Below are positions 14,083 through 48,512 of a DNA stretch of 64,000 bases, one piece after another. Source of the stretch: a virus. The stretch lies in IMG/VR virus record IMGVR_UViG_3300045988_164075. One strand, written 5' to 3'. The notes beneath the pieces were generated by a model. The model searched no databases, was not told where the DNA came from, and was given only the letters and a program-made list of their open reading frames with translations. The position numbers and the translations under genes were made by a program. Positions within the stretch are counted from its first letter, which is position 1; the number at the start of each line of letters is the position of its first letter.

Positions 14083-17000
14083 CATTATATTACTATAATG
14101 TACAGACTATATCTTTAACTTATATATTTAAATATGAAACCTTTAGTTTGTTTTCTGAGTCCTTTAGCAACGTCTCTACATTTTGAAAATTCTTTAGCAC
14201 ACGCTCCTACAGTATCTCATACTTTAATTAGATTATTATTTAAATCGTATTGAGCAATTTTACGGCTTTCTCCAATTTTTAATTTTGGAAGTGATTGATA
14301 CACTTCTTTAGATTTTAAAATGTTATAAATTTCAGAAGGGTCCTTTAAAAAATAGTAACCTTTTGCTGAATTTTTTTTATTTAATGCTGAATATAAATTT
14401 GATTTAGTTATATCAAAAGATTTATATATATCTTCAGTATTTTCTCATTCAGCAATTAAATTTCCTTTTAAATCAAATTGATAAATTGTCGAAAACTTGT
14501 TTATCGTATATTCTTCAATATTTAATTTATCATATCTATTATAAGATCAGAATGAATTTTTGTAACTTCTTTTTTGTTTACAAGCATTATTAAAATTTTG
14601 ATAACTACATCCAAACTTTTCAGCTAAGTCTTTTATTCCAAAATATTCTTCTCAGAATTCGCCATTTAATTTATAACGATATACTGTTTTAAAACAAATC
14701 CCAGGATTAATTCCACCTAAACTAGTATTGTAATTATCTTTTCTTTTAATAAATTCTTTTGTTACAATCTCCTCCTCTTTTTTATATGCATCTAACTCTT
14801 CATTATAAACATATAAAATAGTTCTTCTAAAATTAGAGTATCCATATTTTTTTAGAGCGTATTGAAAAGCTGTTTTTGGATTTTTTAATAAATATCCAAT
14901 TTTAATTCCATTACCAATATATCCGTCAAATATATCTGGATTACTTGTTTTGTGTACCCCAATATAGATTTTTCCGTTAATTAAACACGTTGTACAATAA
15001 ACTATATATTTCATATTATTTAAGTTATCCTCTATTTTCCACTATGTTTAAGTGTACGCTCATTCGAGCTAGTCGTTGAACCTTACTTAGGATTACCTTA
15101 CTAGGCTTATCTTATCTAAGTCTTGGCTGCTGATTGTCCCAAGGGAGTTTCCAGCAATTAAAAGGATTTTTATATTATTATCACTAATAATAGGGACCTA
15201 CGCTGCGTAATTTAAGCCCCAGTTAATATATTTAGAAGCTGCTACAGGAGACGAAACTTGACCGCTTGACGTTCCGTTTTGTCCACCAACACCATTAATC
15301 CAGTTATGAACAATATCACAACCTTTAAATGTAAACATTTGAAGTGCTGGTTTGCCAGTTGCTGCATCTGCCGTTAGATCAAGGAATATACCGTATTTCT
15401 TATCAGGATATTCAAAATCAAACGAACGATCAATCTTAAATGTAATTTGATTCATTTATGTTAACTTATATTTTCATATAAGATCAGACTATATCTTAAT
15501 TTAATATACTATTACCATATATTAAATTCTCCCTATTTCGGAATAAATCCTACTCTACTTGGTTATTTTACAATATCTTTCTTATTGTATATCCTTTCGA
15601 TAGTCGTTGAACGTTTTCTAATAATTAGAACTTCGCTGCTGATTAGCATGTGTAATATTTACATTTAGCCTTCCAGCAATTAAAGGAGTTTTCTTTATAA
15701 TTAAAATATAAAGGAGCAATTATTTACCCGCAAATTCATAAGATTGATATGTTGCACCTAAATCAAGATATCCGTTAGAAGCTTTCGAGAACAAGAATGT
15801 TCCAACAGTCTTCCAATCACGAATCCAAGACGAAAGTGCATTTTGAACTTCATGCCACATCAACGTGTTGCAAATAAAGATATATTTGTTACCCGTTGGT
15901 CTTTCCGATTTAGTAGTCATTTGAGCAAGTACCTTATTAAAGATACGAACATTTAGATGTCCACTAAATACATATTTTCCAGCAAAACGTTCAATTTGGC
16001 TGATGATACCATCGCCAGAAATAATCATATTTGTGTTAACTTATATTTTCATATAAGATCAGACTATATCTTAACTTTATATACTGTTACCGCGTATAAA
16101 GTTCTCCCCGTTTCCATTTGATCAAATGTACTCTACTCATTTATTCATTAAGAGATTTCTTCTTAATTATACTTTCGATAGTCGTTGAACTTCCTTAAAT
16201 AAATTATTTAAGTTTAGCTGCTGATTGTCTTCATCTTTCATGTTCAGAGTTTCCAGCAATTAGAGGAGTTGTTTTAATTAGTTTACTAATTTAGCAGCCC
16301 ATTATTTCTTTAGGTTGCTGTGTTTCGGGATCAAAAATCTTAGGTTTGCCAAATTTATCTACATTAGTTTTACCCCAAAGTAATGCGTTATTACGAGCAA
16401 ACATGTAGGTATCTAAGCAATCTTTTTGTGCAGGATTAAGTTTGTAAACAGGATCGTCTTGCTGACCTTTACCGATTTGGATAAATACATCTTCCATTGC
16501 GGCATATTTAGCAGACCAGCTTACATCTGCACGATGGGTCGAGATAAATGTCCGATGCTTTTCGGTATTCATTATGTTATCTTATAGTTTCCTATAAGTT
16601 CAGACTATATCATTAACTTTCCTTTAATTTAAATATGAAATTTTTACAATGTTTACTTTGGCCTTTTATACAGCGTCGAACGCCTTGTCCATATTGTTGT
16701 ATCGCTTCCGTAATTGAGGAAAATTCTTTAATAAAGTTCCCTTTTAAATCAAATTGTTGTACAATCTGTTTCTGGTTATTTAATTTTAACTGTTTTGCGC
16801 AATCGACTTTTTCTAAATATACCTGAAATCCTTTAAATGTTCTACCTAAACGAATTGCTGAAGATATAGATGAAGAACTTTTAAGTCCAAATTCTCTTGC
16901 ACAAGCTATTGGAGAAGAAAATTCTTTATAAAAAGTTCCATCTAAATTATATAGGTATATTTTACAATTTTTAATTGACTTTGTTTGAGTTAAAGGAAAT

Positions 17001-19020
17001 TTTTCAAAAAATTCTCTAGAATAATATTTACCATTCACAGAATATTTACCTTGTATGGCCCTGTTAATAGTAGTTCTACTTACGGAATACTTTTTTATAA
17101 TATCTGTTACAGAATCATAACTTTTAATAAAATCTAAATTTTCATTAAATTCATAAATACTTCCAGGATTGAAAATATTAAAATCTTGAATGTTTAATTT
17201 AGATGTATAATAGGTTGTTCATAAACTTTTTTGTGAAGTAGATTTAAATTTAACCGCATTTTCAATACTAGTTGTAGAGCAACCAAAACATTCCGCAGCT
17301 TTTTTATACGAACTATAAGAATCAATAAAAGCTCCTTCAAGATCATATTGGTAAATAGTAATAGATTGATCTGGACCTTTTTTTCCTCCAACAATAGCAT
17401 TATATACATACGGTTTTTTTATAAACTCTTCATTTACAATTTTTGATTCTAAAGAAAATGCTTCTTCTGCTGTATCAAATACAGCTAATGTATATCTTCT
17501 AAAAGCGTTAACTCCATACTTATTTATAGCATATTGAAAAGGAGTCTTAGAATTCTTATATGTACTTGGTTGATTAAAATAACAACCGCAACCTAAATAT
17601 CCATCAAATATATCAGGATTTTTTGTTGAGTGAACTCCTATATAGATTTTATTATTTATTGTATTTACTGTAATATATAGAATTGTTTTCATATTTATAC
17701 TTTTATAAAGTTATCTCCCATTTCAGACTGTAGTCTTACTCCCTATTGGGATAGTCGTTGAACCTTATTTAGCATTTCGTCAATGACGCTTATGTAATCT
17801 AAATCTTGGCTGCTGATTACCATATTACTTTTAACTTAGGCTTCCAGCAATTAAAGAGATTATTCGATGTTGCTTACGCAACAAAGGAGCAATACATTTT
17901 TGTTTTACTCTGGTATTTTGTGTAACCTTCCTCCAAGTTACAACTAATTTTCTTACTGTTTCCAATAAGTTTAGACTATATCACCCTCTTTACTTCTATT
18001 ACCGTTATAAAGAGGCTCTCCGTTTCGGTGTTACCCTACTCTACTCACTTCTTCACTTATATATTTCTTATAAGCTATGTTTTCGATAGTCGTTAAGCAC
18101 AATCTCTATATAAGAGATCTTCGCTATGGATTGGCATATCTTATTTATTATAAGACTTAGCTTTCCCATAATTAGAAGAGTTTAATCGAGTAGCTTACGC
18201 TACAAGTGCACAAAGAAGTTTATGCATCTCAGGTTGATAGTTCGTTAAGAAACGCGTATTCATACCAGGCTGACAAGCAGAAAGATCAAGTACTTCACTA
18301 TAATCGTCACCTTGTAATTTACCAACTACTTCCCAATCGTTGTCGCGACGTCTAATCGGACGATTTAGAACAATAACCTGTTGACGAGAACCTTCAATAA
18401 TAAAGGTATCGTTTTTCTGATAGTAGTTTTCAGGGAAATGGAAGATAATATCTGATCCATTTGCGCCATTACCTTCAGGTACAGTTAGGAAGTGTACTCT
18501 TTTAATACGGTTTACATTAATATCCCATTCAACCATGAACGAGTTAATACTTTGAAAAGCATTGGGTCTACCTTTGTCTAGAGTATATACGTTCATTAAT
18601 GCTTCAGTAAGATGCGTAGCAGTATACTGATCATACAATGAAGATACGATACCTAAACGAGCAGGATTTGCCATGCTTGTTGTTATCCTATAAGTTTTTT
18701 ATCTTATAGTTCTTACAATTTACCATCTTGTAAGGTCGGCATACGTTTTCATCTAATAGATGTTGCGTACTCTTGGAGATATTATATTCTTTATAAATAA
18801 AGTTTCAATCTCTATGCTCTACGGTGAATATATATATTATTATATATTTTACCTCGGTGTTGCCGCTGAGAATTAGGACGGTTTCGCCGATTTTACGCAA
18901 TTTTTCAATAAGTATTTCTACCTAAAGGGGCGCTCATCCACCCAAGAACTTCATAAAGTCCTCTGCAGTACGAGTCGAAGCCATTTCGGGACGTACTGTT
19001 GTAAAATTAGATATTCTCAT
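14008..19020 (-). CDS. major capsid protein locus: 7 exons and 6 group I introns, about 494 aa after splicing
   Basis: Five ORF-track fragments (18195-18674, 16291-16572, 15720-16028, 15198-15455 plus small pieces) are separated by non-coding blocks carrying group I P/Q/R/S elements. Exon lengths sum to 1482 nt. The locus lies between an acidic scaffold-like gene and an Ig-domain decoration gene, is TGA-free, and has its own upstream promoter and downstream terminator. The MCP call rests on size, synteny and expression signals. Confidence 0.7.
14083..15209 (-). mobile_element. group I intron 6 of MCP, carrying a homing endonuclease gene
   Basis: Minus-strand P (aattgctggaaac), Q (aatcagcagcc), R (gttcaacgactag, 15070-15081) and S (gatatagtctg, 14103-14113) elements, plus a P9 hairpin with a GTAA loop. 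The 5' boundary is uncertain (15200-15210). Confidence 0.7.
14115..15014 (-). CDS. GIY-YIG homing endonuclease with NUMOD/IENR-type DNA-binding repeats, 299 aa
   Basis: N-terminus KYIVYCTTCLINGKIYIGVH...KYGYSNFRR. Continues through TGA at 14652 and three more. The TAA (14115-14117) abuts the S element. Confidence 0.75.
15210..15452 (-). CDS. MCP exon 6
   Basis: ORF 15198-15455 minus the intron-derived ATG. The frame is closed by TAA immediately upstream of that ATG. Confidence 0.65.
15453..15725 (-). ncRNA. group I intron 5 of MCP (no ORF, 273 nt)
   Basis: P at 15669-15681, Q at 15632-15644, R at 15599-15612 and S at 15482-15495 (all read as reverse complement). P1 pairs gggU-aa with tt-G-ctc. 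P9 is cttatat-GAAA-atataag. The terminal G is the G of the apparent ATG (15453). Confidence 0.75.
15726..16039 (-). CDS. MCP exon 5
   Basis: ORF 15720-16028. The exon ends at ggt (15726-15728) before an in-frame TAA. Its 5' end is either 16039 or 16025. Confidence 0.65.
16040..16292 (-). ncRNA. group I intron 4 of MCP (no ORF, about 255 nt)
   Basis: Same P/Q/R/S family (ccagcaattagagg, gctgctgatt, gatagtcgttgaac, gatcagactatatc on the plus strand). Both boundaries are uncertain (5' site 16293-16312, 3' site 16026 or 16040). Confidence 0.7.
16293..16569 (-). CDS. MCP exon 4
   Basis: ORF 16291-16572 minus the intron-derived ATG. Confidence 0.65.
16570..17906 (-). mobile_element. group I intron 3 of MCP, carrying a homing endonuclease gene
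   Basis: Core elements at 17740-17893 (plus strand gatagtcgttgaac, gctgctgatt, ccagcaattaaag) and S at 16600-16612. P1 pairs gagU-aa with tt-G-ctc, using the same guide sequence as intron 5. Confidence 0.7.
16613..17692 (-). CDS. GIY-YIG homing endonuclease with NUMOD/IENR-type repeats, 359 aa
   Basis: ORFs 17219-17692 (NNKIYIGVH...KYGVNAFRR) and 16613-17038 share a frame and are joined through TGA 17219-17221. The TAA lies next to the S element. Confidence 0.75.
17907..17951 (-). CDS. MCP exon 3, a 15-codon micro-exon (KISCNLEEGYTKYQS)
   Basis: The only open stretch between the end of the intron 2 P9 hairpin (G at 17952) and the intron 3 P1. Keeps exons 2 and 4 in phase. Confidence 0.45.
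17952..18221 (-). ncRNA. group I intron 2 of MCP (no ORF, 270 nt)
   Basis: Variant core (aattatgggaaagc, aatccatagcgaag, cttaacgactatcgaaaac, gatatagtctaaac on the minus strand). P1 pairs tgcaU with Gtgca. P2 is gtagc-GTAA-gctac. P9 is cttattg-GAAA-cagtaag. Confidence 0.65.
18222..18671 (-). CDS. MCP exon 2
   Basis: ORF 18195-18674, trimmed at the proposed splice sites (after cat at 18222, and after the ATG G at 18672). Confidence 0.65.
18672..18939 (-). ncRNA. group I-like intron 1 of MCP (divergent core, 268 nt)
   Basis: GC-richer structured block. P1 pairs gggU with Gccc. Hairpins: cgg-cgaaa-ccg, catc-tatta-gatg flanked by tacg/cgta, cttacaa/ttgtaag, ctataag/cttatag. The tail ends in ...aacaagcATG, like the other introns. 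Confidence 0.5.
18940..19020 (-). CDS. MCP exon 1 (MRISNFTTVRPEMASTRTAEDFMKFLG)
   Basis: ATG at 19020, 45 nt downstream of the scaffold-like gene stop. Runs 27 codons to ggt, followed by the intron P1. Confidence 0.45.
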
Positions 19021-43419: not shown

Positions 43420-44551
43420 CATTTGTGTTCACATAAGTTCGTTACTCTTATGCCGTCTATTTAGACTGCTACATATTTCTATGTAGATCAGACTATATCA
43501 TATATAAATTAATGTTTTGTAATATAATTGTTAATAAATCTTCTTGAAAACATTCAGTAGATGTTTTATTTGGCCAATTTTGAGGAACATACAAATTATT
43601 TTTAATAATCTTTTTTAATTCCGCTTCAAAATTTACACATGCTTCAAATTCATTAAATTCAATAATTTTAAGAACATCGATGTTATAATTTAACTTTTTG
43701 TAGTCATCAAATCTTCTTAAGTTTCCATCAGTTTTCTTATATGTGATTCCTAATTTATAAAATTTTTCTGTTGAATTTGATAATTTAATTAGATAAAACA
43801 CATTACTTTTTGTTCAATTGGTATTACATTTTATACAACCACAGCCCGAAAATATATAATCATTATCTATTTTAACTTCTCCATGAATAGGACAAATTAA
43901 TATACATTTTCCATTATGCCGATTTGTAGATTCAATTTTAAAATCATAAACATTATTATACAAATAACGTAACTGTTTATAAAAATAATCTTTTCTATTA
44001 ACCGCACTACGAATATTTGGAGTGTGACCAGCTAATAATGCATCAGGAGAAATAGAAACTATTCCATATCGTGTATCAAATAGCATTTTATCCTTCATTT
44101 TTGTATACTCAGATAAAGGATGAATTTGATTATATATCTTAGGTTCTTTGTCTTTTAACATATTCATAAAATACTCAGTTCTATTAACCGCTAGTAATAT
44201 TCCTGGACGATTATTAAATAACTGTTTAGCCTGAGTTAATTTTATAATACCGTATCTATCTTTAACAATAATTGGTTGTGATAAACCTTTAAAGTGCCCA
44301 ATGACTTCAAGCTCCCCATTATATAGTTGCTTTACTTTTTGTTTATAATTTTCTTCGTTATATTTCATAACTACTTATTAATTTATTAACAATTATCTTT
44401 AATTTATACTTCCGCGCTTCGGATCACTTGATCCTACATAATAGTCGTTGAACCTTCCATTTTTATATGGCTTGGCTGCTGATTGCCCTCGACTTTACGT
44501 TAGGGGTTTCCAGCAATTCACGGAATTTAGACAGGACTCATACTAATGTTA
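43420..44551 (-). mobile_element. group I intron in the portal gene, carrying a homing endonuclease gene
   Basis: Same core family as the MCP introns: plus strand aatagtcgttgaac (about 44440), ggctgctgatt, ccagcaattc (about 44510) and gatcagactatatc (43487-43499). P9 is ctacata-GAAA-tatgtag. Confidence 0.7.
43493..44368 (-). CDS. homing endonuclease, 291 aa: Zn-ribbon N-terminal part plus T5orf172/GIY-YIG-superfamily C-terminal domain
   Basis: ORFs 43814-44368 (CPIHG...CGCIKC) and 43493-43801 (FYLIKLSNSTEKFYKLGIT...) share a frame, joined by TGA 43814. The TAG stop lies inside the S element. Confidence 0.65.
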
Positions 44552-45739: not shown

Positions 45740-46041
45740 TATAATATATCGTTATTACAATAATCGTCTGTATCGATACATTGTGACTCATATCATTCGT
45801 GTTTAATTGCTCGGAAATGATGTGCTCGTTCTATTTGGCGTTTACGTAAGTCCTTAGCAATAAACTTTAGAAATGATTCTTTATCTCCTTGATAATTAAT
45901 AACCATAGGAGACATTTCTTGGTTTAGATATAAGTTTAATGTAAAATCATCTTCACTTTCGATTACTTTTAAGTGTCCAATATACTTACAACATGTAACT
46001 TTTTCAATAATATCTAAAACCTCTTTTTCTAATTGTGTCAT
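45739..46041 (-). CDS. hypothetical protein, 100 aa
   Basis: ORF 45793-46041 reads through TGA 45793 to a TAA that overlaps the portal ATG (TAATG). Confidence 0.55.
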
Positions 46042-47610
46042 GTTGTTGGAATTATACCATATCGTTTATATCCTCTGTCGTCAATATATCATCCAATATC
46101 TTTTCAAGTTTTAGTAACTTCGTTTTTAACTTTAGGATTAATTCCAGTTAATTCTTCATCCGCCATTTCACACATCCCAAGAGCAGCTACAATATCAAAT
46201 TTTCTTTTATTTTCGTATGAATAGTTTAGTAACTGTTCAAGCATTTCATCAGAATCAATTCCATAACAGTAATCATTTACAAAGTTATTAATCAATTCTA
46301 ATCCATGTTTAATAATAGTTTCTGTTGCAGGTACCCCTATCATGGCCGAATTTCCTTTTTTTATATCTCCTAAACTAGATTTTGGACGTCGCATAAATAG
46401 AGAATCTTTCTTTTTTTCTCTAAAGTAAGTTAATATACTGATTTTTGTATGTTCAAGTAACGCCTTACAATTGTACCATACTAAAATCTTCATTGCGTTT
46501 TCATAAGCTTCTCGTATGTCTCTTGGGCGATCTTTATAAATACAAACATATTTAGGTTCGTTTAAACCAAATACTCTTCTTTTTACAACAATACAAAAAT
46601 CTGATACATCGTATTGTGTTGCAGAATCCCCAGTACCCTGATCGATAGAGTCTATTCCTGCAACATATAAATTATTATATATATTACCTTCGCTATCTCG
46701 TTTTGGTTCTTCGTAAACTAATATTTTACTATTAGGACTAGATACTGCTTTAACTTTATTTCGAGAATTATCGTTATCTTCTCTATCTCATAATAACGCT
46801 ATATGTTGAGGAGAAGTTCCCATTTTATGTACTCGAATCTGAGTAATTCTATCTGCAATTAATACGGAATCAAATATATTTTCACCTTGTCGTAATAATG
46901 CTTCTTTAGGAGTAAAACAATATTCTGAACAATACTCTAATAACCGTTCTCCTGATTTTAATTTGCGTTGTTCTTCATAAAAAGCTTTAGCTCGTTTAGT
47001 ATCGGTTACTCCTCGATTATCAACATATCCAGGACGCATCATAAATTCATATGCTGGAATAAAGAACCCAGTATACTGTGCAGTACCATCATCTGAATAG
47101 AAGTTTTTATATGGAAGTACTCCTGCGCTTAATGGATCTTCAAACATTTTAGCTAAACCAGCTAGAGCAGGCCCCATATCACCTCCCGTCCCTCATGCGA
47201 TCTTAATCCCGACTCTAGCTCCTCCTAGTTCAACTAGAGCAGTACCTTGCGTTCACGATGTTGAAAGTATTGGATTAGATCCAGCCTCTTCAAATAAGAG
47301 TCTATCTACACGTTCACCTCTAATTTTTCTTGGGTGATCTGCTGTTATTCCTTCTATATCAGCCATTCGCCCAAATTCTATGCCTTCACTATCAACAAGA
47401 GATGCACGTTTGTGTTTTATATTATCAATTTTCTGACGAAGTCGTTTCATACCTCCGTCAGTATTTTGATTTAATCAGTTTAATTGTACTCAGCATTTAC
47501 CTAATACAGTATCAACATAACTCTCAGTATATGCTGTATAAATAGTAGTAAAACCTTTAGTAGTAATAAAAGGACGAACACCTAAACAAGCTCCAATTTC
47601 TGAAAAACCT
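46029..47610 (-). CDS. terL: terminase large subunit exon 2
   Basis: Fragments 47253-47450 (ADHPRKIRGERVDRLLFEEAGS), 46788-47177 and 46104-46493 are in one frame, linked by TGA (47253, 46104 and others). TAG at 46029-46031. Confidence 0.7.
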
Positions 47611-47877
47611 CAATTTTTGTTATCTCTAAGGCTTTTTATCCCTAGACTCTTATAATTTCTTATAAGTTCAGCATATATTTTCATCCTTAACTAAATATTA
47701 GGATGTTTCGCTCTCGTGGAAAGTTTATCTCTGTGATTCCTTTCTATGCGTTACGATGGTCAGTGATTAATTGACTTATCTCGCTGTTAACATAGTGATT
47801 TTAATCACCTTAGTCTTCTGCGATATAGCGAAATTTATTACTTTTATATTACTATAAAAGAGGGCAGGTATTAGTTT
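47611..47877 (-). ncRNA. group I-like intron in terL (no ORF, 267 nt, core unlike the MCP family)
   Basis: Non-coding structured block. P1 pairs ggggU with Gccct. P2 is cttttata-GTAA-tataaaag. Further helices are tcgct/agcga and gtgatt/aatcac. It ends in G (47611). Splicing gives LKSRGV-GFSEIGA. Confidence 0.6.
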
Positions 47878-48512
47878 ACCCCACGAGATTTTAATGCAAC
47901 ACAATCTTTATAAAGATATTCGCACATTTCTAGATAGTGAAAATATTCATATTGTTTTGCAAAAAAAGTTGGAAATGCTTCGGTACGTCCAGCACCAGCT
48001 TTTTTCTCTCCATCAACAGTTTTCATTCGATAGAAATTCAAAAAGAAATAATGATCTCCAGTTATCCTATATTTTCCAACAGTATAACCATCTACACAAC
48101 GTTTATACTGTTCTGTTCAATAATCACGATAAGGTTTACTATTTTTAGGATATTCTGTATAATGTCCTCTTTCCATAAACAATCTACCTGCCTCAGTAAA
48201 TGGAGTTGGATCAAAATCTAAACCTTGAGTTTCATTTATAGGTCTATAACCAGTTAATTCATAAGATAATTCTGGATCAAAATATAATATTTCTTCATCA
48301 AGAGGAACATCTCACGCACCATTGCGTTTTCTATGTCCTTCCTTAGGAAACTCATAATATGGACTTTCCTCTTCGTCTTCTGTTTTTGATACAGTTACAT
48401 CTTGAAATAATTTCTTTTTTAATTCTTCTTCATACCTGTCTGCAAATGTGGGTAAAGTTGCAGGAGGATTTTTTCTTGGTCTACCTCGTTTTCGTTTTAC
48501 TTCTTGTTCCAT
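47878..48512 (-). CDS. terL: terminase large subunit exon 1
   Basis: ORF 48312-48512 reads through TGA 48312. It continues ...FPTFFAKQYEYFHYLEMCEYLYKDCVALKSRG and is closed by TAA two codons into the intron. Confidence 0.65.

What the first reader, a model, noticed from the sequence alone, without database searches (positions are those of the whole stretch)
47611..47877. ORF-less intron splits the TerL ATPase P-loop region
The TerL N-terminal frame ends ...DCVALKSRG and then hits TAA two codons later. The frame carrying GFSEIGACLGVRPF... resumes 267 nt downstream. Cutting after ggggU (47878) and after G 47611 gives VALKSRGV-GFSEIGA, a K-x-R-x-x-G-x-S arrangement expected in this terminase family. 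P1 (ggggU with Gccct) and a GTAA-capped P2 are present, but the core differs from the capsid/portal family. All three morphogenesis genes that homing elements typically target (MCP, portal, TerL) are therefore intron-bearing here.
Basis: inference. Interest (0 to 1): 0.65.

Follow-up and report, generated by a model that had tools for sequence, protein, structure and literature searches.

The report
ORF-less group I intron in terminase
A 267-base self-splicing (group I) intron without any gene of its own sits inside the ATP-binding loop of the DNA-packaging enzyme of a gut crAss-like phage. It is real and precisely bounded, but it is one more member of a known kind of phage intron, from a widespread family that the standard RNA database model does not detect.

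Summary
TerL lies on the minus strand (48512..46029, TGA read as Trp). It is interrupted by 267 nt (47877..47611) carrying several stop codons. Near-identical phages in public metagenomes have an intron-less allele reading ...GGGGT|AGGTTT..., which encodes exactly the predicted 738-aa protein (KSRGV|GFSEIG).

The insert has the group I anatomy:
- P1 with a U·G pair at the 5' splice site.
- P10 formed by the contiguous guide sequence ACCU|GCCCU.
- A terminal G.
- P2–P9 with the P3/P7 pseudoknot and an extra P7.1 hairpin.

Rfam RF00028 does not match it. A covariance model built only from 17 unrelated viral contigs hits it full-length (131.6 bits, E 2e-33). Across 112 distinct relatives, 95% of pair cells are paired and 50 of 54 pairs show compensatory changes.

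The same family includes the Lactobacillus phage JCL1032 TerL intron, reported as self-splicing, which also splits Walker A. It also includes a LAGLIDADG-carrying intron at the identical TerL site in another gut phage, and a second copy in this window (18939..18672).

Verdict: new member of a known kind, of moderate interest.

The parts
47878..48512 (-). TerL exon 1 (635 nt, codons 1-211 plus the first 2 nt of Val212). It ends ...AAA UCU CGU GGG GU.
   Evidence: Translation with TGA=Trp. Identical to the 5' part of the intron-less alleles. PHROG 6681 terminase large subunit, E 2.3e-75 for the spliced protein.
47611..47877 (-). ORF-less group I intron, 267 nt. First base A 47877, last base G 47611 (omega-G).
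   Evidence: Absent from intron-less alleles L003-L006 and present in L007/L036/L097 with 0 differences. CM R1 hit at 131.6 bits, E 1.8e-33. MFE fold z = -3.0. Covariation in the family.
46029..47610 (-). TerL exon 2 (1582 nt including the stop). It starts A|GGU UUU UCA GAA, which completes Val212 (GUA) and continues GFSEIG...
47601..47891 (-). Walker A (P-loop) codons K208-S215 (KSRGVGFS), split by the intron after the 2nd base of Val212. The exon parts are 47891..47878 and 47610..47601.
   Evidence: K208, R210, G213 and S215 are invariant in alignment A2. In the AF2 model the motif lies between strand 203-208 and helix 214-228. Lambda TerL Walker A is KSA-R79-VGYS (PMC6379665).
47861..47882 (-). 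P1: exon GGGGU (47882..47878) pairs with intron GCCCU (47865..47861). U 47878 pairs with G 47865 as the wobble pair at the 5' splice site.
   Evidence: Direct reading and the MFE fold. L008, with an intron at the same TerL site, has a covarying P1, CGAU/GUCG.
47866..47869 (-). P10 guide: intron ACCU, directly 5' of the P1 guide, is complementary to the first four bases of exon 2 (AGGU, 47610..47607).
   Evidence: Direct reading. L008 has the equivalent AUCUU/AGGAU.
47841..47860 (-). P2 hairpin CUUUUAUA-GUAA-UAUAAAAG.
   Evidence: L008 has UCUAUA-GUAA-UAUAGA at the same place.
47706..47833 (-). P3: UUUCGCU (47833..47827) pairs with AGCGAAA (47712..47706). It encloses P4-P6 and P7.1.
   Evidence: 98% of cells paired, with all 7 pairs showing compensatory changes in A1. 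90% paired in A5.
47755..47823 (-). P4-P5-P5a-P6-P6a domain (intron 55-123).
   Evidence: The P5a hairpin corresponds to the place where the relative MT835539 carries its LAGLIDADG ORF.
47671..47749 (-). P7: GCAUA (47749..47745) pairs with UAUGC (47675..47671). It forms a pseudoknot with P3, and G129-C207 is the putative guanosine-binding pair.
   Evidence: Family variants are GCAUA/UAUGC in 103 sequences, GCGUA/UACGC in 7, GACUA/UAGUC in 1 and GAGUG/UACUC in 1. 98.8% paired.
47719..47744 (-). P7.1 hairpin (GAAAG...CUUUC) inserted between P7 and the 3' strand of P3. It is followed by the conserved CCACGAG.
   Evidence: 99% paired in A1 and 98% in A5, with 4-5 of 5 pairs compensatory.
47682..47705 (-). 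P8 hairpin CAUCCU...AGGAUG, followed by J8/7 AAAAUA.
47625..47666 (-). P9 (CUUAUAA-GAAA-UUAUAAG) and a second 3' hairpin (UCUAGGG-AUAAAAAG-CCUUAGA), followed by the tail GAUAACAAAAAUUG.
   Evidence: 97-99% paired, with most pairs compensatory.

Best explanation
[quoted passage not shown] It has no reading frame of its own. It is inserted after the second base of the Val212 codon, inside the deviant Walker A motif (K-S-R-G-V|G-F-S) of the large terminase of a TGA-recoded, crAss-like (most likely Zeta-group) gut phage.

Inferred mechanism:
1. The TerL pre-mRNA folds.
2. The guide sequence ACCU|GCCCU pairs with the end of exon 1 (GGGGU, with U·G at the cleavage site) and with the start of exon 2 (AGGU).
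3. An external guanosine bound at P7 attacks after U 47878.
4. The terminal G 47611 replaces it in the P7 site, and the freed exon-1 3'-OH attacks after G 47611.
5. The exons are joined to GGGGU-AGGU, which restores GUA (Val) and a 738-aa TerL.

Shown: the boundaries, the restored ORF, the fold and its covariation, membership of a family that contains an intron reported as self-splicing, and presence/absence polymorphism among phages whose TerL exons are 99.6% identical.

Inferred: catalysis in this phage, and the origin of the element as an ORF-deleted relative of a LAGLIDADG-encoding intron that occupies the same site in other phages.
For: - Precise excision is implied by intron-less alleles. 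L003-L006 read GGGGT|AGGTTT and differ from the window's exons at only 9 of 2217 nt. P0001-P0017 are the exact 738-aa product.
- Homologues need no residues from the insert: 25 sequences read LKARGxGFSEI contiguously.
- The single-sequence MFE fold reproduces P1-P9 (z = -3.0).
- CM R1, built from 17 IMG/VR sequences and no window sequence, hits 47617-47840(-) over model positions 1-215 at 131.6 bits, E 1.8e-33.
- Covariation on 21 sequences: 88.3% of cells paired against 33-42% when slid, and 49 of 66 pairs compensatory.
- Covariation on 112 distinct sequences: 95.4% paired against 34-44% when slid, and 50 of 54 pairs compensatory, including P7.
- P1 and P10 covary with the exons in L008, whose TerL is 38-47% identical and whose intron has the same site and phase.
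- R1 hits the TerL intron of Lactobacillus phage JCL1032 (162.5 bits). There the CDS is annotated as a join, and the introns are cited as proven self-splicing. That intron splits Walker A too (GRKNG|KTT).
- MT835539 carries a 1066-nt same-family intron with a LAGLIDADG ORF at the identical site. Removing the 769 nt between two TTTAATCAC repeats leaves 297 nt that share 197 identical positions with the window's intron.
- The 3' core is nearly the same as that of an RF00028-positive intron in the same window (AAAAUAUAUGCUGAACUU... against AAGAUAUAGUCUGAUCUU..., third hit).
Against:
- Rfam RF00028 gives no match, even at E<=10 on 600 nt.
- P7 is almost invariant, partly because relatives were collected with a pattern that spans it.
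- Subgroup assignment (IA1, IA2 or IA3) was not made.
- The relative MT835539 has C, not U, at -1, so the U·G rule is not universal in the family.
Confidence: 0.9

Rival explanations
1. Split gene: the insert is never removed. TerL is made as two polypeptides, an N-terminal fragment ending ...KSRGVN and a C-terminal fragment starting at the ATG inside the insert (MKIYAELIRNYK...NW-GFSEIG), and these assemble into an active enzyme.
For: Gene callers do predict a 551-aa product from that ATG in intron-bearing contigs (P0020-P0028). The insert is a multiple of three bases.
Against: - The break falls inside the P-loop, between the conserved R210 and G213/S215. Neither fragment would have a complete nucleotide-binding loop.
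- The 'start codon' lies in the most conserved RNA element, J8/7-P7 (AUGAAAAUAUAUGC). That element is conserved in introns of unrelated genes such as tape measure and terminase genes of other phages, so its conservation is at the RNA level.
- The covariation pattern is that of helices, not codons.
Confidence: 0.04
2. Dead insertion: the 267 nt are a decayed, no longer splicing remnant. Genomes that carry it have a broken TerL, being defective phages or assembly chimeras.
For: There is no endonuclease ORF and no RNA data. P4 has one A·A mismatch. Rfam is silent.
Against: - The same intron, with 0 differences in 267 nt, occurs on several independent long contigs whose exons stay open and differ at 6-16 silent or near-silent sites. 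It also occurs in nine 551-aa protein clusters on about 17 contigs.
- All core helices are intact, and the full model matches at 131.6 bits.
- TerL is essential, so a broken allele would not persist at this frequency.
Confidence: 0.04
3. Translational bypass or another non-splicing recoding event carries ribosomes across the gap, in the manner of T4 gene 60.
For: The exons are in the same frame, and this genome already uses unusual decoding (TGA=Trp).
Against: The gap is 267 nt, against 50 nt in the known case (own knowledge). No matched take-off and landing codons are evident. The structure is a complete group I fold with guide-sequence pairing to both exons, which bypassing does not need.
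Confidence: 0.01

Closest known systems
TerL group I intron of Lactobacillus delbrueckii phage JCL1032 (Riipinen & Alatossava 2004, as cited in PMC6669764)
   Same: It belongs to the same RNA family by the covariance model built here (162.5 bits, full length). It is ORF-less, of similar size, and interrupts the Walker A motif of TerL (GRKNG|KTT). It is likewise invisible to Rfam.
   Different: Its host is a Firmicutes siphophage with a classical GKT Walker A. Its insertion point is 4 nt away in motif register and in phase 0 rather than phase 2. Its P1 guide is GCCGUU rather than GCCCU.
LAGLIDADG-encoding group I intron in the TerL of gut phage contig MT835539.1
   Same: Identical insertion site and phase (KARGA|GYSEIEA). 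It has the same core, and its P5/P5a region is nearly identical.
   Different: It is 1066 nt long, with a LAGLIDADG ORF (PF14528) in the P5 region flanked by TTTAATCAC repeats. Its P7 is GCGUA/UACGC and it has C at -1. The host phage recodes TAG, not TGA.
Rfam RF00028 (Intron_gpI), i.e. T4 td-like IA introns, including the four copies in this window at 15465-18231
   Same: It has the same order of helices, with the P3/P7 pseudoknot and extra helices between P7 and P3'. J8/7-P7-P9 are nearly identical in sequence (third hit; alignments).
   Different: P7 is GCAUA/UAUGC instead of GACUA/UAGUC. P4-P6 are different, with a single P7.1 carrying a conserved UGAA...AAUAUAAU interior. The RF00028 score is below any reportable level.
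Intron- and intein-rich Zeta group of crAss-like phages (Yutin et al. 2021, PMC7886860)
   Same: The setting matches: related contigs of 156-172 kb, TGA-to-Trp recoding in late genes, many introns and inteins in TerL, MCP and portal, and a TerL 28-30% identical to Crassvirales TerL.
   Different: That survey found introns through endonuclease domains. This one has no ORF and would not be found that way. The window's assignment to the Zeta group is inferred, not tested phylogenetically.

Membership tests
Group I intron | 5' splice site follows a U that forms a wobble pair with G in P1, made with an internal guide sequence near the intron's 5' end | tested here: met
   Exon GGGGU (47882..47878) pairs with intron GCCCU (47865..47861), with U47878·G47865. 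P1 covaries in L008 (CGAU/GUCG) and in JCL1032 (AACGGU/GCCGUU).
Group I intron | Last intron nucleotide is G (omega-G) | tested here: met
   G 47611. The boundary is fixed by the intron-less alleles. Family members end ...GAUAACA(N)nUG.
Group I intron | P10: the guide sequence also pairs with the start of the 3' exon | tested here: met
   Intron ACCU (47869..47866) pairs with exon AGGU (47610..47607), contiguous with the P1 guide. L008 has AUCUU/AGGAU.
Group I intron | Conserved core of P3-P9 in canonical order, with P3 and P7 forming a pseudoknot, supported by covariation | tested here: met
   88.3% of cells paired and 49 of 66 pairs compensatory; 95.4% paired and 50 of 54 pairs compensatory, with slid controls at 34-44% and 0 of 500 shuffles as high.
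Group I intron | Guanosine-binding site in P7 (a conserved G-C pair) | tested here: inconclusive
   G129-C207 is invariant (96 of 98 cells) and occupies the position of the G-C pair in GACUA/UAGUC introns. Binding itself cannot be tested here.
Group I intron | Match to the curated model Rfam RF00028 at the gathering score | tested here: not met
   No hit at gathering, nor at E<=10. The same holds for 20 relatives and for the JCL1032 intron reported as self-splicing. This is read as a limit of the model, not of the element.
Group I intron | Accurate self-splicing of the RNA (ligated exons, excised intron with an added G) | not testable with these tools
The only indirect support is a family member reported as self-splicing.
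Subgroup IA group I introns | Extra helices (P7.1/P7.2) between the 5' strand of P7 and the 3' strand of P3 | tested here: met
   One hairpin (P7.1, 47744..47719) lies at that place, with 98-99% of cells paired and compensatory changes. Assignment to IA1, IA2 or IA3 was not made.
Mobile (homing) group I intron | Encodes a homing endonuclease | tested here: not met
   267 nt with stops in the exon frame. No LAGLIDADG motif ORF anywhere in the window by a simple regex scan. A relative at the same site does encode LAGLIDADG.
Large terminase (TerL) | ASCE ATPase domain with Walker A, plus a C-terminal nuclease domain | tested here: met
   PHROG 6681, E 2.3e-75. Foldseek matches T4 gp17 (3cpe, E 1.9e-13), D6E, and the P74-26 ATPase and RB49 nuclease domains. 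Strand-loop-helix at residues 203-228.

The most novel reading that the evidence does not exclude
The ORF-less intron may be more than a passive passenger. It could be kept as a protected allele. By disrupting the 20-30 bp Walker A target it would make TerL immune to the LAGLIDADG endonuclease carried by same-site introns of co-infecting relatives. The presence/absence polymorphism seen among phages with 99.6%-identical TerL exons would then reflect ongoing phage-phage interference.

In addition, the family it belongs to (130 copies in 0.9 Mb of sampled viral contigs, none seen by Rfam) may be a distinct, uncatalogued and very abundant subclass of phage group I introns.
Probability: 0.2. Interest if true: 0.55.

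Novelty: new member of a known kind. Interest (0 to 1): 0.4.

Why it matters
For annotation:
- Without recognising this intron and the TGA recoding, TerL of this abundant gut-phage lineage is called as fragments.
- Public protein collections already hold artefactual 551-aa 'proteins' that begin with intron-encoded MKIYAEL... That peptide is simply the J8/7-P7 ribozyme core read as codons.

For surveys:
- The standard Rfam group I model misses this whole family, including a member reported as self-splicing.
- Intron counts in phage genomes based on Rfam or on endonuclease domains are therefore underestimates.

For biology:
- The same codon position in the Walker A loop is occupied by same-family introns in three TerL lineages that are only 38-51% identical.
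- A second motif (WG|TGGD) is hit by both introns and inteins.
- This gives a clean natural system for studying how homing elements converge on the most conserved bases of essential phage genes, with intron-plus and intron-minus alleles co-circulating.

Tried and rejected
- Rfam at gathering threshold on the whole window found four RF00028 introns elsewhere and none at TerL.
- Rfam at E<=10 on 47450-48050 gave only noise: rimP, snoRNAs and an RNase P fragment.
- Rfam on 20 related loci and on JCL1032 found no intron, as did Rfam on the MissB1 and phiCD211 loci at E<=1. Rfam therefore cannot adjudicate.
- Pfam on the spliced TerL gave no family.
- Sequence searches of PDB with the protein and with a 25-sequence profile found no terminase. 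The fold search was needed.
A P3-to-tail model was used instead, so P1 and P2 are supported only by direct reading, by the MFE fold and by L008/JCL1032 covariation. In the MAFFT alignment A1 they are misaligned (40-50% paired).
- PHROGs on the exons of the multi-intron gene at 19018-15200 gave no hit, so its capsid identity stays unverified.
- A motif scan for a free-standing LAGLIDADG gene in the window that could mobilise the intron in trans found none.
- Co-conversion tracts were sought by comparing intron-plus and intron-minus alleles. No difference lies within 100 nt of the junction, so nothing can be said.
- A translational-bypass reading and a two-polypeptide reading were considered and rejected, as set out under the rival explanations.

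Full report
**Setting.** The window is 29.7% G+C, and the genes around the finding run on the minus strand. Translating that strand shows long frames broken only by TGA at positions where homologues have invariant Trp (W67, W132, W252, W331, W486, W714). TGA is therefore read as Trp. ARAGORN finds no tRNA in the window. The spliced protein matches PHROG 6681 'terminase large subunit' in one stretch across the junction (E 2.3e-75). It is 28-30% identical to Crassvirales TerL proteins. Its AlphaFold model (mean pLDDT 70.7) is most similar to T4 gp17, T7, D6E, P74-26 and HK97 terminases. Near-identical relatives sit on contigs of 156-172 kb. Together with the TGA recoding and the load of introns and inteins, this fits the Zeta group of crAss-like phages described by Yutin et al. 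2021 (PMC7886860). That assignment is an inference.

**The observation.** TerL starts at 48512 and reads ...YKDCVALKSRGVN*. After 89 codons containing several TAA and one TAG, the same frame continues ...NKNW GFSEIGACLGVRPF... to a stop at 46029.

This is exactly what nature shows. Seventeen protein clusters of 738 aa (P0001-P0017, about 60 contigs) are about 100% identical to the predicted product. Their DNA (L003-L006) reads TCTCGTGGGGT|AGGTTTTTCAG with nothing in between. Those intron-less genes differ from the window's exons at only 9 of 2217 positions. Other contigs (L007, L036, L097) carry the same 267 nt with no difference at all. Nine clusters of 551-aa 'proteins' (P0020-P0028) are gene-caller products that start at an ATG inside the insert. 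The element is therefore polymorphic for presence within what is effectively one phage species.

**Where it sits in the protein.** In 25 homologues (59-92% identical), L207, K208, R210, G213, S215 and E216 are invariant, with consensus LKARGxGFSEI. In the model, residues 203-208 form a strand, 209-213 a loop and 214-228 a helix, which is the P-loop arrangement. The motif K-S-R-G-V-G-F-S has the form of the deviant Walker A of lambda TerL, KSA-R79-VGYS (Table 1 of PMC6379665). The intron lies after the second base of the Val212 codon, in the middle of this loop. The title of the finding is correct.

**What the insert is.** Rfam release 15 reports four group I introns in the window (15465-15735, 16040-16323, 17690-17916 and 17952-18231, all minus strand). 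It reports nothing at TerL, even at E<=10 on a 600-nt slice. The sequence nevertheless reads as a group I intron. In intron coordinates (window position = 47878 minus the intron position):
- P1: exon GGGGU with intron 13-17 GCCCU, and U(-1)·G13 at the cleavage site.
- P10: intron 9-12 ACCU with exon-2 AGGU. The guide ACCU|GCCCU therefore lines up the ligated exons GGGGU|AGGU.
- P2: 18-37, with a GUAA loop.
- P3: 45-51 with 166-172.
- P4, P5, P5a, P6 and P6a: within 55-123.
- P7: 129-133 GCAUA with 203-207 UAUGC, knotted with P3.
- P7.1: a hairpin at 134-159, between P7 and P3'.
- P8: 173-196, followed by J8/7 AAAAUA.
- P9: 212-229, with a GAAA loop.
- A further hairpin at 232-253.
- The tail GAUAACAAAAAUUG, ending in G267.

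A plain MFE fold of the single sequence recovers every nested helix of this list (-59.5 kcal/mol, z = -3.0, 0 of 200 shuffles as stable).

**Evidence from relatives.** BLASTN with the intron alone finds its 3' half in 70 phage records, usually in unannotated gaps inside tape-measure or terminase genes. These include Streptococcus phage MissB1, C. difficile phiCD211, 6ec-like Staphylococcus phages, C. perfringens phiCP39-O, Lactobacillus phage JCL1032 and crAss-like cr111_1. The 19-nt core GAAAATATATGCYGAACTT occurs in at least 97 IMG/VR contigs.

On a MAFFT alignment of 21 ORF-less members, my structure gives 88.3% paired cells against 33-42% when the partners are slid. Compensatory changes occur in 49 of 66 pairs. 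P1 and P2 are misaligned there and score poorly.

I then built a covariance model (R1: P3 to tail, 215 positions, 49 pairs) from 17 IMG/VR sequences, deliberately leaving out the window. It matches the TerL insert over its full length (47617-47840, 131.6 bits, E 1.8e-33). It also matches a second place in the window (18680-18907, 160.7 bits). In 914 kb of fetched viral loci it finds 130 copies. On that alignment, 95.4% of cells pair, against 34-44% when slid. Fifty of 54 pairs show compensatory changes, and P7 also varies coherently: GCAUA/UAUGC in 103 sequences, GCGUA/UACGC in 7, GACUA/UAGUC in 1 and GAGUG/UACUC in 1. This alignment is fitted to the model, which favours the structure. The unfitted MAFFT result points the same way.

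**Link to a characterised intron.** R1 hits the TerL gene of Lactobacillus phage JCL1032 at 162.5 bits. In the record that CDS is a join of two pieces. The phage's two introns are cited as proven self-splicing group I introns (Riipinen & Alatossava 2004, cited in PMC6669764). Reading the sequence, that intron has P1 AACGGU/GCCGUU and splits GRKNG|KTT, again the Walker A loop, four bases away in motif register. Rfam misses it too. The RF00028 negative is therefore a blind spot of the model rather than evidence against a group I identity. R1's weak third hit in the window (16040-16072, E 0.035) is the J8/7-P7-P9 end of an RF00028-positive intron. This shows how close the two cores are there.

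**Same site in other phages, and the missing ORF.** L008 (IMG/VR; TerL 38-47% identical) has a same-family intron at exactly 212|213, in the same codon phase. Its P1 (CGAU/GUCG), P10 (AGGAU/AUCUU) and P3 (UUCCGAA/UUCGGAA) have changed to fit.

MT835539.1 (TerL 39-51% identical, TAG-recoded) also has one at that site (KARGA|GYSEIEA). It is 1066 nt long and contains a LAGLIDADG ORF (PF14528, 38.7 bits). The ORF-bearing 769 nt lie between two copies of TTTAATCAC in the P5 region. Without them, the remaining 297 nt align with the window's intron at 197 identical positions, and P5/P5a are nearly identical. The window's intron is thus most simply an ORF-less relative, by loss or by never having gained the ORF, of a homing intron that targets this Walker A sequence.

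No LAGLIDADG-motif ORF is present elsewhere in the window. How the ORF-less copy spreads is open: by recombination in co-infection, by an endonuclease supplied in trans, or not at all.

**Rivals.** A two-polypeptide TerL would split the P-loop. Its supposed start codon is the most conserved RNA element of the family, found in introns of unrelated genes. A dead insertion is hard to reconcile with an intact core, identical copies on independent long contigs and open exons. Translational bypass has nothing in its favour beyond the shared frame. None of these is excluded by direct RNA data, because the tool for sequencing runs was not available. I put the self-splicing reading at 0.9.

**Novelty.** Group I introns in phage terminase genes, in Walker A, and a high intron load in Zeta crAss-like phages are all on record. 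This is a new member of a known kind. The modestly new points are these:
- The element is ORF-less and so escapes endonuclease-based surveys.
- Its whole family escapes Rfam.
- Intron-plus and intron-minus alleles co-circulate.
- The same nucleotide position is occupied across TerL lineages that are only about 40-50% identical.

Noticed in passing
window 18672-18939 (- strand): A second member of the same intron family (268 nt, ORF-less) is the first intervening sequence of the multi-intron gene that starts at about 19018. CM R1 scores it at 160.7 bits, E 3e-41. The predicted junction KFLG|ANPARLG aligns without gaps to the uninterrupted homologues in MT835492 and MT835470. Rfam does not report it.
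   Followed up: partly
window 15465-15735, 16040-16323, 17690-17916, 17952-18231 (- strand): Four RF00028 group I introns (54-74 bits) lie in the same gene, so with the one above it has at least five introns. Two ORFs with GIY-YIG-like N-termini (…KIYIGVH…) lie at about 17650 and about 14972. PHROGs gave no hit for the exons, so the 'capsid' identity is unverified.
   Followed up: partly
window about 43420-44515 (- strand); portal exons about 45739-44516 and about 43400-42390: The portal gene (phrog_6547) is split by an insert of about 1.1 kb. The insert carries an endonuclease ORF (43814-44368 and beyond, phrog_681). Read by eye, its start contains the canonical P/Q/R elements of td-like group I introns (…AAUUGCUGGAAAC…, …AAUCAGCAGC…, …GUUCAACGACUAU…). 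Rfam reported nothing there at gathering threshold.
   Followed up: partly
whole window; e.g. TerL codons 67, 132, 252, 331, 486, 714: TGA is used as a sense codon at positions where homologues have invariant Trp. No tRNA gene, suppressor or otherwise, is found in the 64 kb.
   Followed up: partly
TerL residues about 343-356 (WG|TGGD); P0058, P0073, P0101; L008:7330-7547; L105:3035-3246: There is a second hot spot in TerL. A 98%-identical relative (P0058) carries both the Walker A intron and an intein (PF14528 and PF14890) between G352 and T353. L008 and MT835539 carry same-family group I introns at essentially the same motif.
   Followed up: partly
window 47683-47697 (- strand), and proteins P0020-P0028, P0058: The conserved ribozyme core AUGAAAAUAUAUGCUGAACUU translates as MKIYAEL. 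Gene callers use this ATG, so public collections contain artefactual 551-aa 'TerL' proteins with a 25-residue intron-encoded N-terminus.
   Followed up: yes
window 47713-47719 and 47881-47887 (- strand): The family-conserved single-stranded CCACGAG (between P7.1 and P3') is perfectly complementary to CUCGUGG in exon 1. That exon stretch overlaps the P1 strand by two bases. L008 and MT835539 lack the exon complement, so this is probably coincidence with the Ser-Arg-Gly codons. An alternative pairing that competes with P1 is not excluded.
   Followed up: partly
L002 (C. difficile phage phiCD211, NC_029048.2) 2369-2619 and 2647-2912; L001 (Streptococcus phage MissB1) 2359-2618: The tape-measure gene of phiCD211 has two adjacent introns. 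The record annotates only the second as Intron_gpI. The first, unannotated, belongs to the TerL-intron family (174 bits). MissB1's tape-measure gene is likewise split by an unannotated family member, and its two halves are annotated as separate proteins.
   Followed up: partly
IMG/VR loci L034, L051, L058, L040, L067: Several viral contigs carry three to five copies of this intron family within a few kilobases, so multi-copy infestation is common for the family.
   Followed up: no
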